In this document: positions 44,139-48,632 of the stretch, piece after piece
Numbering within the stretch: position 1 is the first letter of the stretch
Layout: every line of letters begins with the position of its first letter
Source: Eledone cirrhosa
Taxonomy: Eukaryota
DNA length: 64,000 nt
NCBI GenBank assembly: GCA_964016885.1
Contig: OZ024743.1
Location: 239,940,001 to 240,004,000 of the forward strand
Direction of reading: 5' to 3'
Translations under genes and position numbers: made by a program
The notes under the pieces: generated by a model
The model's database searches: none
Seen by the model: only the letters and a program-made list of their open reading frames with translations
Told to the model about the DNA's origin: nothing

Positions 44139-44935
44139 TACAAATACACAGAGAGAAGTGTGTTACACAGTGAGAAGTGTGTAAAAAAATTATTACATGT
44201 GAGTTTAACCGTTACTGTATGGAGAACAAAACCTACACGTTAGCAATTAAATAGAAAAAAACTAAGTCAGAATCAAATCTCTGAAGTAGAGTTTTAAATT
44301 ACTAACCTTATAACTATAAGCTTGTTGATACGAATTTAGTTCGTTTCACCACAGAAATGTGCGGTATAACAGCTCATAGGATCCCCAGTCTGCAAGTATG
44401 GGTACTGTTCCCGACACATCTAGCCTAATGAATAGAGAGAAAGCTAATAAACACGGTGCCCAGAATAGGGCGAAATCACGTGTTATTTGCATCAAATAAC
44501 GGCTCTCATTGTTGAGCTAAGAAATTCGAATGGTTGGGCTTTCCTCTCTAGCAATGGTTGGGCTTTCTTCTCTCTCAATTCATGAGAGCCGTTATTTGAT
44601 GCAAATAATACGTGATTTCGCCCTACTCTGGGCAGCGTGTCTATTCTATTAGCTTTCTCTCTATCCATTAGGCTAGATGTGTCGGGAACAGTACCCATAC
44701 TTGTTGACTGAGGATCCTATGGGATGTTATACCGCACATTTCTGTGGTGAAACGAACTAAATTCGTATCAGCAAGCTTATAGTTATAAGGTTAGTAATTT
44801 AAAACTCTACTTCAGAGATTTGATTCTGACTTAGTTTTTTTCTATTTAATTGCCAACCTGTAGGTATTGTTCACCATAGTAACGGTTAAACACACATGTA
44901 ATAATTTTTAACACACTTCTCTCTGTGTATTTGTA
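44139..44935. repeat. Retrozyme-like family C: inverted pair (44139-44509 vs 44582-44935)
   Basis: Arms of about 355-370 bp are diverged reverse complements; each holds an HHR and an ATGCAAAT. Confidence 0.85.
44700..44775 (+). ncRNA. Type I hammerhead ribozyme (family C)
   Basis: CTTGTTGA-CTGAGGA-(extended stem II region)-GAAA-CGAA-CTAAA-TTCG-TA-TCAGCAAG. Stem I is 8 bp, stem III is complete and the cleavage triplet is GUA. The mirror copy at 44320-44396 has core CTGGGGA. Confidence 0.7.
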
Positions 44936-45283
44936 TTTGAGCTCAGATGAAAATTCTCTGTTCTTCTTCGAACTAATATTATTATTACTGTGAACTGCGG
45001 AATACTTTAATTCCGATCTTTGTATATATATATATATATATATATATATATATATATATAAACAATTAAGTTAAGAATGTACATCCACATATGTATACTG
45101 AAATACTAGTATGCATATGAATACACACACGTGTACATATGTAGATGTACCGAGTTTTTCACTGGACACTTTACTGTGAGTGTCCAGCTATTCTGTATGT
45201 AAACACACAGACAAACCGGTTTTTAGAGTCATACTGGTTTTCGAGGAAACACCTTTCCTCTATTCTCCAGAAAGCCAGACAGG

Positions 45284-45328
45284 AATATTGGACTAGTTTC
45301 GATGTTGTTACATCTCATCAGCAATATT
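45284..45328 (-). ncRNA. Type I hammerhead ribozyme (family A)
   Basis: AATATTG-CTGATGA-GATG-TAACAA-CATC-GAAA-CTAG-TC-CAATATT on the minus strand. Confidence 0.88.
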
Positions 45329-45748
45329 TACCTATCTTCCGGCCTTTCTAGAGAATCGTAAAAGCACATATCGTTATATGCTTTTTCTATGAAAATTAGT
45401 AGTGGGCAGACTAATTTGCATAGAGCGTGAGTACGTACCGGTTCAGCGGAGACGATAAAAACAAATAACGAAACGAAATTAAATTACGTTTCGTTTGTAA
45501 CTCACTTTTGTATGACTGACGCTTAAACAATTAAGTTAAGAATGTACATCCACATATGTATACTGAAATACTAGTATGCATATGAATACACACACGTGTA
45601 CATATGTAGATGTACTGAGTTTTTCACTGGACACTTTACTGTGAGTGTCCAGCTATTCTGTATGTAAACACACAGACAAACCGGTTTTTAGAGTCATACT
45701 GGTTTTCGAGGAAACACCTTTCCTCTATTCTCCAGAAAGCCAGACAGG

Positions 45749-45793
45749 AATATTGGACTAGTTTCGATGTTGTTACATCTCATCAGCAATATT
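45749..45793 (-). ncRNA. Type I hammerhead ribozyme (family A)
   Basis: Identical to 45284-45328, offset by 465 bp. Confidence 0.88.
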
Positions 45794-46370
45794 TACCTAT
45801 CTTCCGGCCTTTCTAGAGAATCGTAAAAGCACATATCGTTATATACTTTTTCTATGAAAATTAGTAGTGGGCAGACTAATTTGCATAGAGCGTGAGTACG
45901 TACCGGTTCAGCGGAGACGAGAAAAACAAATAACGAAACGAAATTAAATTTCGTTTCGTTTGTAACTCACTTTTGTATGACTGACGCTTAAACAATTAAG
46001 TTAAGAATGTACATCCACATATGTATACTGAAATACTAGTATGCATATGAATACACACACGTGTACATATGTAGATGTACCGAGTTTTTCACTGGACACT
46101 TTACTGTGAGTGTCCAGCTATTCTGTATGTAAACACACAGACAAACCGGTTTTTAGAGTCATACTGGTTTTCGAGGAAACACCTTTCCTCTATTCTCCAG
46201 AAAGCCAGACAGGAATATTGGACTAGTTTCGATGAATATTGGACTAGTTTCGATGAACCGGTACGTACTCACGCTCTATGCAAATTAGTCTGCCCACTAC
46301 TAATTTTCATAGAAAAAGCATATAACGATATGTGCTTTTACGATTCTCTAGAAAGGCCGGAAGATAGGTA

Positions 46371-46415
46371 AATATTGCTGATGAGATGTAACAACGTCGA
46401 AACTAGTCCAATATT
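46371..46415 (+). ncRNA. Type I hammerhead ribozyme (family A)
   Basis: AATATTG-CTGATGA-GATG-TAACAA-CGTC-GAAA-CTAG-TC-CAATATT; predicted cleavage after C46408 (GUC). Confidence 0.88.
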
Positions 46416-46835
46416 CCTGTCTGGCTTTCTGGACAATAGAGGAAAGGTGTTTCTTCGAAAACCAGTATGACTCTAAAAACCGGTTTGTCTGTGTGTTTAC
46501 ATACAGAATAGCTGGACACTCACAGTAAAGTGTCCAGTGAAAAACTCGGTACATCTACATATGTACACGTGTGTGTATTCATATGCATACTAGTATTTCA
46601 GTATACATATGTGGATGTACATTCTTAACTTAATTGTTTAAGCGTCAGTCATACAAAAGTGAGTTACAAACGAAACGAAATTTAATTTCGTTTCGTTATT
46701 TGTTTTTATCGTCTCCGCTGAACCGGTACGTACTCACGCTCTATGCAAATTAGTCTGCCCACTACTAATTTTCATAGAAAAAGCATATAACGATATGTGC
46801 TTTTACGAATCTCTAGAAAGGCCGGAAGATAGGTA

Positions 46836-46880
46836 AATATTGCTGATGAGATGTAACAACATCGAAACTAGTCTAATATT
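46836..46880 (+). ncRNA. Type I hammerhead ribozyme (family A)
   Basis: Same motif offset by 465 bp; the first stem I pair is G-U. Confidence 0.85.
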
Positions 46881-47329
46881 CCTGTCTGGCTTTCTGGAGA
46901 ATAGAGGAAAGGTGTTTCCTCGAAAACCAGTATGACTCTAAAAACCGGTTTGTCTGTGTGTTTACATACAGAATAGCTGGATACTCACAGTAAAGTGTCC
47001 AGTGAAAAACTCGGTACATCTACATATGTACACGTGTGTGTATTCATATGCATACTAGTATTTCAGTATACATATGTGGATGTACATTCTTAACTTAATT
47101 GTTTAAGCGTCAGTCATACAAAAGTGAGTTACAAACGAAACGAAATTTAATTTCGTTTCGTTATTTGTTTTTATATATATATATATATACATATATATAT
47201 ATATATATATATATATATATATATATATATATAATATATATATATATATATATATATATATATATATATATATATATACTATATGATATTTAAAGTTATA
47301 AACTCAAACAGTCCTTTACAATTAATTAG

Positions 47330-47657
47330 CTCAAAGAAAGAAGCATTTCTGAGCCGTGAAATACAAGTTAATATAAATTAATATATGATAAACACTAATA
47401 TAAACATATAAGTGTTTGTATTGTAAATGACCAAGTGAGCTAGATTGAAAAATACTAATTAAATTAATACAGTTTGCCTGTCTCGATTTAAAATAATAAA
47501 TCAATAAAAACAAACCCATATTGGCAATAACCGTGATACCCGGACAAATTTAAACTTCAAAATCCAAACCTGTCAAAATCCAAACTTGGTCATTTACAAT
47601 ACAAACACTTATATGTTTATATTAGTGTTTATCATATATTAATTTATATTAACTTGT
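47330..47657. repeat. Dispersed repeat with inverted arms (about 47362-47435 vs 47583-47657); related to 56365-56810
   Basis: GATAAACACTAATATAAACATA...TTGTAA.GACCA shared with 56365-56810 and repeated inverted. Confidence 0.65.
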
Positions 47658-47875
47658 ATATATATATATATATATATATATATATACATACATATATATA
47701 TATATATATATATATATATATATATATATATATATATATATATATATATACATATATATATATATATATATATATATATATATATATATATATATATATA
47801 TATATATATATATATATAAATATATATATATATATAAATATATATATATATTTATATATATATATATAAATATAT

Positions 47876-48632
47876 GGTTGCCTTAACACCGTACGGCATA
47901 AAATTCAGGCTGTTCAGTTTGTTTACAAACGAACAAAGCGGCGTTATAATAAGCGTCCGCTAAACTGATACGTGCATATATGTATGTATACCTGTATGTA
48001 TATATATATATATATATATATATATATATATATATATATATATATATATATATATGCATGCTACTGTACGTCTGTATACATATATGTATGTACGTATACA
48101 CACATACTTACATTTAAGTAAGTGCCGTACTAAGAGTGAGAAATGAAATTTCGTTTTCATTTTGTTTCAACTTATCGTTTTCGGTATGCCTGACCGACTT
48201 AACTCACTCGATATGCAAATTAGGCTGCTCAGCCGTTAATTTTCATAAGGAAAGTATATACTTTCGAACGTTCAACTATCTGGCAGAAGGGTATACGGTG
48301 CTGATGATAGCTAACAAGCTTGAAACTAGTACATCGTTCCTATGTCAGTGTTGAACAAAAAGGTGACGTGGTTGCCTTAACACCGTACGGCATAAAATTC
48401 AGGCTGTTCAGTTTGTTTACAAACGAACAAAGCGGCGTTATAATAAGCGTCCGCTAAACTGATACGTGCATATATGTATGTGTACCTGTATGTATATATA
48501 TATATATATATATATATATATATATATATATATATATATATATATATATATATATATATATATATATATATATATGCATGCTACTGTACGTCTGTATACA
48601 TATATGTATGTACGTATACACACATACTTACA
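47876..48632 (+). repeat. Retrozyme-like family B: ~1.5 tandem monomers (~494-bp period including a (TA)n tract)
   Basis: GGTTGCCTTAACACCGTACGG starts at 47876 and 48370. Confidence 0.88.
48295..48337 (+). ncRNA. Type I hammerhead ribozyme (family B)
   Basis: ACGGTG-CTGATGA-TAGC-TAACAA-GCTT-GAAA-CTAG-TA-CATCGT; GUA triplet and palindromic stem III ACTAGT. Confidence 0.82.

What the first reader, a model, noticed from the sequence alone, without database searches (positions are those of the whole stretch)
44139..48632. Cluster of three non-coding hammerhead-ribozyme repeat families, each with an ATGCAAAT octamer upstream of the core
Seen: three non-coding repeats within 4.5 kb (C 44139-44935, A 45061-47172, B 47876-48632) each carry a type I HHR. 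Each has ATGCAAAT upstream on the same strand: 44599 (101 nt before CTGAGGA), 46278 (92 nt) and 48213 (80 nt). A and B also have a TATA-like AG(C/T)ATATA between octamer and core. Known: metazoan non-LTR retrozymes are tandem HHR monomers that give circular RNAs, and newt satellite 2 uses snRNA-type promoter elements including an octamer. Inference: a family of self-promoting, self-cleaving retrozymes, possibly mobilised by the PLE reverse transcriptases common here. Caveat: in A and B the octamer sits in a hairpin (TATGCAAATTAG/TAATTTTCATA) and may be conserved as RNA structure.
Basis: partly seen in the sequence, partly recalled or inferred. Interest (0 to 1): 0.9.

Follow-up and report, generated by a model that had tools for sequence, protein, structure and literature searches.

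The report
Retrozymes carrying hybrid snRNA-type promoters
These are three of many families of small protein-free jumping repeats with predicted self-cutting RNA motifs, and two of them carry, just ahead of the ribozyme, a likely built-in promoter made of the same sequence words, at the same spacing, as the host's own small nuclear RNA genes, which would explain how such repeats get transcribed.

Summary
A (465-nt unit), B (~435 nt plus (TA)n) and C (~540 nt) are dispersed non-coding repeats with type I hammerhead motifs. An octamer-to-hammerhead pattern occurs 32,977 times in the genome (control 1). Insertions sit in (TA)n as tandem, often head-to-head arms ending at two fixed sites, the Penelope-like (PLE) footprint. 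They work like known non-LTR retrozymes.

The promoter idea gained support. The extended octamer lies at -77 to -79 in the five host Pol III promoters judged intact, and in none of 16 U1/U2/U5 promoters. The element families pair it with a U1/U2-type core word, TATA and initiator at U1/U2 spacing. A and B lack the host's distal element and 3' box. Best reading: a compact, likely Pol II, read-through promoter. C has only a degenerate version, and A's octamer hairpin is also conserved. The cluster is probably just shared (TA)n targeting.

No RNA data were available, so transcription, cleavage and circles are untested. Newt satellite 2 is the precedent. This scan reported the same promoter and footprint before on other pieces of this genome.

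The parts
44138..44509 (-). Family C, inverted 5'-truncated arm; octamer 44485-44492(-); hammerhead core broken
44508..45022 (+). Family C, forward arm (unit about 540 nt), ending in (TA)n
44599..44606 (+). C octamer, followed by an E-box-like CACGTG; no core word at +17; TATA position disrupted in this copy
44700..44775 (+). C type I hammerhead: core at 44708, extended helix II region, predicted cut after 44767
45023..45060 (.). (TA)n tract shared by the 3' end of C and the 3' end of A's minus arm
45059..46232 (-). Family A minus arm, about 2.5 units of 465 nt; outer 3' end at unit position 387; octamers 45414-45421 and 45879-45886; cores at 45321 and 45786
46213..46257 (.). Junction of the two A arms, with a 21-nt duplication
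46254..47174 (+). Family A plus arm, 2 units; outer 3' end at unit position 456, then (TA)n
46277..46350 (+). A promoter-like block: 12-nt octamer word 46277-46288, weak core word 46294-46299, TATA-like 46318-46326, predicted +1 at 46350; repeated 465 nt later from 46742
46371..46415 (+). A type I hammerhead: helices 7/5/3 bp, palindromic helix III, predicted cut after 46408; second copy core at 46843
47875..48636 (+). Family B: unit positions 314-435, (TA)n, 1-435, (TA)n, 1-61/65; the unit contains a (TA)n tract
48212..48285 (+). B promoter-like block: octamer word 48212-48223, core word TCAGCC 48229-48234, TATA 48254-48262, predicted +1 at 48285
48295..48337 (+). B type I hammerhead: helices 6/4/3 bp, predicted cut after 48331

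Best explanation
A, B and C are dispersed, protein-free tandem repeats with type I hammerhead motifs and a Penelope-type insertion footprint (non-LTR retrozymes), and A and B carry in every unit a likely RNA polymerase II promoter assembled from the host's own snRNA-gene words. Steps: (1) Shown: each unit holds, in order, an extended octamer, a core word, a TATA-like word, a pyrimidine-A step and the hammerhead. (2) Inferred: transcription starts 8-30 nt before the ribozyme core, with the octamer standing in for the missing distal enhancer. (3) Inferred: with no snRNA 3' box the polymerase reads into the next unit, so the promoter itself is transcribed. (4) Inferred from known retrozymes: successive hammerheads, probably acting as dimers, release a unit-length RNA that a host ligase closes. 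(5) Inferred from the footprint: a GIY-YIG PLE protein nicks (TA)n on both strands and reverse-transcribes from two fixed internal sites, writing tandem, often head-to-head arms that put a promoter back upstream of each ribozyme. C is probably a distant member with a decayed or different promoter.
For: Footprint: 36 of 39 scored A ends fall at two sites followed by (TA)n. One end of each type is seen in 10 of 12 distinct A insertions and 9 of 11 B insertions with both outer 3' ends resolved. A PLE with a GIY-YIG domain in the window has a hammerhead and also ends in (TA)n at two sites. Two RT start sites bounding the 'tail' and cleavage of both strands were shown in vitro for a PLE (PMC11167929). 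Promoter: the 12-nt octamer word lies at -77 to -79 in three distinct U6 promoters, one U6atac and RNase MRP. It is absent from 16 of 16 distinct U1/U2/U5 promoters, which carry YCAR at -55 to -58. In 17 of 17 element representatives CA sits at +18/19 from the octamer word, YCAS in 15 of 17, against 0 of 5 host Pol III promoters; no search pattern selected this position. Core word to TATA is 23-26 nt, against options of 22-28 nt in U1/U2, where each of 8 promoters has one at 25-27. Octamer to TATA is 40-43 nt in elements and 46-48 nt in host Pol III genes. A, B and C lack the sense-strand distal element and the 3' box. The octamer's predicted pairing partner differs between families (downstream, upstream or none). 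In a run not selected on the octamer, B's partner arm carries two changes in about half of the depth while no listed change falls in the octamer or TATA (40 rows shown, 5 not).
Against: No RNA evidence for start site, cleavage or circle. The exact combination (Pol III-gene octamer plus U1/U2 spacing) was found in no host gene examined. A's core word is weak (CCACTA), and a U1/U2 weight matrix ranked the predicted site first only in D; it was second in B and not in A's top four. In A the octamer and its partner arm are equally invariant (0.007 each), and the whole unit folds strongly (z -8.3, 25 shuffles). 12% of B haplotypes change the C of the core word. For families found through the pattern excluded octamer-to-TATA spacings of 47-48. 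The 17 representatives are hand-picked and partly homologous. Family D carries a 3'-box-like word. No similarity was seen between the units and the terminal repeat of the one PLE family sampled. In Xenopus only 1 of 9 predicted retrozyme dimers cleaved in vitro (bioRxiv 10.64898/2026.07.22.740005), and hammerhead cleavage was dispensable for PLE insertion in vitro.
Confidence: 0.62

Rival explanations
1. The block is a type 3 RNA polymerase III promoter like U6, and transcripts stop at T runs.
For: The octamer word is specific to host Pol III genes among those examined. One of A's two fixed ends lies at its only T5 run (unit position 450-454).
Against: The spacing is 4-7 nt shorter than in all five host Pol III promoters and the core word is U1/U2-like. 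Copies include the promoter and run as multimers of up to about 30 units, which needs read-through of T4/T5 runs. B's ends are not at T5 runs.
Confidence: 0.14
2. The octamer and TATA-like words are kept as RNA structure or as an RNA-level binding site for the PLE protein, and the likeness to snRNA promoters is secondary.
For: Strong hairpins in A. The A partner arm is invariant. Families A, B, E2, E3 and F all pair the octamer with a downstream arm, with a compensatory-looking pair at +9.
Against: The partner differs or is absent in D, E, G and J. The octamer's C stays unpaired yet unchanged in A, B and F. Four separate words match host promoter spacing. 0 of 16 autonomous PLE ends carry the octamer, which a PLE-protein binding site should be.
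Confidence: 0.12
3. The block is a fossil of a once-captured snRNA promoter, and present copies are transcribed by read-through from host genes.
For: A C sublineage amplified with a broken octamer (6 of 7 copies). About 15 other hammerhead clusters in the flanks have no octamer.
Against: The words and their spacing persist across families whose other sequence has diverged beyond blastn detection. Variable positions avoid the motifs in B (2 of 24 versus 23 of 80, p 0.03; A 0 of 24 versus 11 of 92, p 0.07, partly biased by how loci were fetched).
Confidence: 0.09
4. The arrays are ordinary satellites spread by DNA recombination, with no RNA step.
For: Some arrays are long (about 30 units).
Against: Insertions are dispersed over many contigs at 97-99% identity, with two fixed ends, variable 5' ends, inverted arms and (TA)n targets.
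Confidence: 0.03

Closest known systems
Metazoan non-LTR retrozymes (Cervera and de la Pena 2020, PMC7229834; abstract, passages, sections 14 and 17 read; supplement unreadable)
   Same: Non-coding tandem units of a few hundred nt with a type I hammerhead, short palindromic helix III, high self-pairing and co-existence with PLEs.
   Different: The main text has 0 occurrences of 'octamer' and its two 'promoter' hits are T7 constructs. Units here are longer (435-540 nt versus about 170-400) and show a two-ended PLE footprint. Circular RNA was shown there and is untested here.
Newt satellite 2 (Coats, Zhang and Epstein 1994; paper not held; known here from a passage in PMC2220036; the octamer-plus-PSE detail is recalled)
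   Same: A hammerhead repeat with an internal snRNA-type promoter used by RNA polymerase II.
   Different: Here there are many families in a genome that looks invertebrate. The octamer abuts the core word, and in this host it marks Pol III genes rather than U1/U2. A TATA-like word is present. Function is untested.
Non-autonomous derivatives of Penelope-like elements (Li, Clavereau and Pollet 2026, bioRxiv 10.64898/2026.07.22.740005, parts 1-3 of 5 read; Craig et al. PMC8557442, passages; Frangieh et al. PMC11167929, parts 1-2 of 4)
   Same: Partial tandems, an inverted 5'-truncated arm, a tail between two fixed ends, and AT-rich or (TA)n targets.
   Different: No homology to the terminal repeat of the PLE family sampled. 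The tail is 60-95 nt rather than 30-40. The autonomous PLE ends sampled lack the promoter block.
Schistosome hammerhead satellite (Ferbeyre 1998, from a passage in PMC2220036)
   Same: A hammerhead repeat with its own promoter.
   Different: It uses a Pol III promoter; the spacing here favours Pol II.
Host U1/U2/U5 and U6/U6atac/MRP promoters (this genome)
   Same: Core word, TATA-like word and start spacing of U1/U2; octamer word of the Pol III genes.
   Different: No host gene examined has both. The elements lack the distal element and, in A, B and C, the 3' box.

Membership tests
Non-LTR retrozyme | Type I hammerhead motif in the unit | tested here: met
   A also matches HH9 below cut-off. 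C has an atypical helix II; core position 7 varies freely across C and B copies.
Non-LTR retrozyme | Tandem units of a few hundred nt with a ribozyme in consecutive units | tested here: met
   A 465 nt and B multimers. C is mostly partial tandems; two ribozyme positions 538 nt apart in L076.
Non-LTR retrozyme | No protein coding | tested here: met
   No stop-to-stop frame of 150 aa or more overlaps 44139-48632.
Non-LTR retrozyme | Self-cleavage | not testable with these tools
   Needs an in vitro assay.
Non-LTR retrozyme | Unit-length linear and circular RNA in vivo | not testable with these tools
   No RNA holder listed; only contigs were laid.
Non-autonomous PLE | Tandem and inverted arms, two fixed ends (tail), AT-rich target | tested here: met
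   the same pattern in the autonomous PLE.
Non-autonomous PLE | Sequence homology to the terminal repeat of an autonomous PLE | tested here: inconclusive
   Blastn hits in 42 PLE loci read as separate neighbouring insertions; only one PLE family was sampled.
Pol II snRNA-type promoter (host U1/U2/U5) | YCAR/YCAS core word 55-58 nt before the start | tested here: met
   B and most other families (15 of 17). Weak in A, absent in C.
Pol II snRNA-type promoter (host U1/U2/U5) | TATA-like word about 25 nt after the core word and a Y-A step about 31 nt later | tested here: met
   23-26 nt in 17 of 17; Y-A step at +30 to +32 in 15 of 17 (read by eye; host spacing).
Pol II snRNA-type promoter (host U1/U2/U5) | Distal element near -260 | tested here: not met
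   No sense-strand match at up to 2 mismatches in A, B or C.
Pol II snRNA-type promoter (host U1/U2/U5) | Capped start site, SNAPc and Pol II dependence | not testable with these tools
   Needs CAGE/RACE, ChIP or inhibitors.
Pol III type 3 promoter (host U6/U6atac/MRP) | Extended octamer word upstream of TATA | tested here: met
   A and B; only the 8-mer in C.
Pol III type 3 promoter (host U6/U6atac/MRP) | Octamer-to-TATA spacing of 46-48 nt | tested here: not met
   41 in A and 42 in B, neither selected on TATA.

The most novel reading that the evidence does not exclude
These retrozymes have built a portable hybrid promoter that the host itself does not use. The octamer word of its Pol III genes serves as an on-board enhancer, fused to the core, TATA and initiator of its Pol II snRNA genes, with the 3' box dropped so that transcription runs on. 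Ribozyme cutting, circularisation and PLE copying from two fixed sites then make an upstream promoter survive retrotransposition. With newt satellite 2, this would be a general design: SINE-like elements with external snRNA promoters made mobile by circular permutation.
Probability: 0.45. Interest if true: 0.72.

Novelty: new variant of a known kind. Interest (0 to 1): 0.55.

Why it matters
The retrozyme papers read here do not say how animal retrozymes are transcribed. An upstream promoter is normally lost on retrotransposition. Here tens of thousands of units in about nine related families keep one, with exact predicted start sites, so the question becomes directly testable. [quoted passage not shown] That could supply compact promoters for a group with few genetic tools. 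The precedent in newts and the lack of RNA data cap the score.

Tried and rejected
Rfam at gathering score: nothing. Sequencing runs: no RNA holder listed. The five runs laid were contigs of unrecorded library type, so they say nothing on starts, ends or circles. Metagenome scan with the octamer-to-core pattern: 119 stretches, 80 examined, 0 of 80 form hammerhead helices, so these are chance hits and give no evidence on other animals. With that locus A is 9 versus 10, and single-unit changes in A lean the other way (12 versus 27), so this is inconclusive. Variants shared by both arms: A 16 versus 13 in one arm only (17 of these 29 from one divergent locus), B 9 versus 5. This fits one template but also one source locus. 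Pfam found nothing in two long PLE frames; the Atlas placed one among HTH_animal/GIY-YIG/RT clusters. No autonomous partner with a homologous end was found. 'Cluster as a system' was rejected as unsupported: these families also turn up in each other's flanks and beside PLEs elsewhere; no formal clustering test was run. Coats 1994 is not held. The supplement of PMC7229834, which may hold mussel, coral and axolotl units, could not be read. Nine paper searches listed no description of such promoters in invertebrate retrozymes; Dfam and Repbase could not be searched.
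Full report
Observation. The three repeats, their octamers and the stated distances are in the sequence. A descriptor finds type I hammerheads in C (core 44708), A (45321-, 45786-, 46378+, 46843+) and B (48301), with helices of 8/2/5, 7/5/3 and 6/4/3 bp. 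Rfam has no hit at gathering score; the four A motifs match Hammerhead_HH9 below cut-off, and B and C match none. A and B have the short palindromic helix III that PMC4209133 links to dimeric cleavage (passages). C has a 34-nt helix II region, its predicted minimum-energy fold is not the ribozyme fold, and its left arm has a broken core. C extends to about 45022 and shares one (TA)n tract with A. No frame of 150 aa overlaps the region.

Families. The window lies in a 3.0-Gb animal genome; its resemblance to an octopod genome is recalled and was not tested. From 40 scored candidates each, A gave 169 matches (full units at 97-100%), B 110 (97-100%) and C 67 (full-length about 85-93%). The pattern octamer, 70-100 nt, core, 10-30 nt, GAAAC has 32,977 matches against 1 for the reversed control. 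A variant pattern that excludes typical A and B has 3,538 against 0 and shows further families, here called D to J. A and B are homologous, and B-G, D-G and F-J link by blastn; C and E link to none. A scan of 665 kb of loci gave 428 hammerheads in 19 clusters; four clusters (A, B, C, D) have the octamer upstream and 15 do not (loci were chosen around A, B and C, so the sizes are biased).

How they spread. Of 39 scored A ends, 36 lie at unit positions 380-389 or 450-459 and run into (TA)n. Where both outer ends are 3' ends, one of each type occurs in 10 of 12 distinct A insertions and 9 of 11 resolved B insertions (B sites 57-65 and 120); the inner 5' ends vary. PMC8557442 describes partial tandems, an inverted truncated arm, a tail and (TA)n targeting for PLEs (passages). 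PMC11167929 shows that a PLE protein cuts both strands of AT-rich DNA and starts reverse transcription at two internal sites that bound the tail. The window holds a GIY-YIG PLE with a CxxxxC motif. In 16 of 30 related loci a hammerhead follows within 1.5 kb, most of these end in (TA)n about 42-51 or 135-140 nt past the cut, and 0 of 16 have an octamer upstream. No end homology to the elements was found, so the partner family is not identified. Editing scars and arm-shared variants were inconclusive.

The promoter test. I fetched the host's snRNA genes. Of 8 distinct U6 upstream regions, three carry the 12-nt word TATGC(A/T)AAT(T/G)AG at -77 to -79. One class has the word at -271, apparently displaced by an insertion, and four lack it there, two of them lying directly behind microsatellites like retrocopies. 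One of 8 U6atac loci (one mismatch) and the single RNase MRP locus have it at -78. In these five the TATA follows 46-48 nt after the word's first base. The 16 distinct U1/U2/U5 promoters, from 53 anchored genes, lack it between -90 and -60 and carry YCAR at -55 to -58 with a TATA-like word about 25 nt later. Most host genes of both types also have a distal element near -260.

In 17 hand-picked element representatives the TATA-like word lies 40-43 nt after the octamer word. For A, B, D and E no pattern selected this; for F-J the pattern excluded 47-48. CA sits at +18/19 in 17 of 17 and YCAS at +17 in 15 of 17, against 0 of 5 host Pol III promoters, and this position was never selected. A pyrimidine-A step lies 30-32 nt after the TATA in 15 of 17 (read by eye). 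That puts the core word 56-57 nt before the predicted start, as in U1/U2, and the start 8-30 nt before the ribozyme core. In the short B variant the predicted start falls on the first base of helix I. A, B and C lack the distal element and the 3'-box-like word found behind 6 of 8 host genes checked; D has a similar word. [quoted passage not shown]

Sequence or structure. The hairpin is strong in A (z -6.2), and A's partner arm is as invariant as the octamer, so A alone cannot decide. Across families the predicted partner is downstream in A, B, E2, E3 and F, upstream in D, E and J, and mixed in G. The octamer's C is unpaired in A, B and F, and one compensatory-looking pair lies just outside the 8-mer. 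In B the mean variant frequency is 0.006 in the octamer, 0.043 in the partner arm and 0.061 elsewhere (58 haplotypes), but many loci were fetched through octamer patterns. The less biased check is run X2: two partner-arm changes reach about half of the depth and none of the 40 listed rows falls in the octamer or TATA (5 rows not shown). Both constraints probably act, promoter in DNA and self-pairing in RNA.

Family C. The 8-mer is intact in 19 of 31 copies and is followed by CACGTG in 26. A GTATATTA word sits at +41 in 5 copies and weaker words in most others, a (C/T)TAG step lies near +72, and there is no core word at +17. A sublineage of 7 copies has the octamer broken in 6. C is best read as a distant or decayed version.

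Comparison and verdict. The elements work like non-LTR retrozymes and meet every sequence-level criterion; cleavage and circles are untested. A 2026 preprint already argues that such repeats are non-autonomous PLE derivatives. An internal snRNA-type Pol II promoter is known for newt satellite 2 (passage in PMC2220036; original not held). What is new is an invertebrate, multi-family case with a hybrid layout that can be read against the host's own promoters. Nine searches listed no paper describing it; Dfam, Repbase and one supplement could not be seen. The scan's own notes report the same promoter block and two-ended footprint on other pieces of this genome, and a promoter-like motif in hammerhead repeats of other genomes. 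They are unchecked AI notes and are not counted as evidence; my hybrid reading was logged before the first look-up. Verdict: new variant of a known kind, interest 0.55.

Noticed in passing
window 30831-32674 (-): 5'-truncated PLE with CxxxxC and GIY-YIG, a hammerhead at 30929 and a (TA)n end. Very abundant in the genome (57,727 first-look candidates, 150 scored), with frames up to 760 aa.
   Followed up: partly
window about 43560-43590 (-): Minimal PLE-type hammerhead-like motif at the end of a C-rich PLE-like remnant next to family C, read by eye.
   Followed up: no
window 19022 (+), 18834 (-), 7299 (-): Further hammerhead families without an octamer, in inverted arrangements.
   Followed up: no
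L175, L176, L189, L190, L194; window about 49224-49290: U6 and U6atac retrocopies, several directly behind microsatellites, some fused to a 3' tail like the one at the end of the repeat right of B.
   Followed up: no
L097 class (C19 U6 array): In 6 of 11 fetched array copies an apparent insertion between octamer and TATA moves the octamer word to -271.
   Followed up: no
L139, position about 2870: Another hammerhead family has a word like the host distal element right after its cut site.
   Followed up: no
L149, L152, L156 (family D): D repeats octamer-like words several times upstream of its block and carries a 3'-box-like word just before one fixed end.
   Followed up: partly
window 34376-36305 (+): Fragments of an LTR-type element: RT, RNase H and integrase zinc finger; described only.
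   Followed up: no
window 47997-48055 and 48491-48575: B has captured a (TA)n tract inside its unit, with variable length between units.
   Followed up: no
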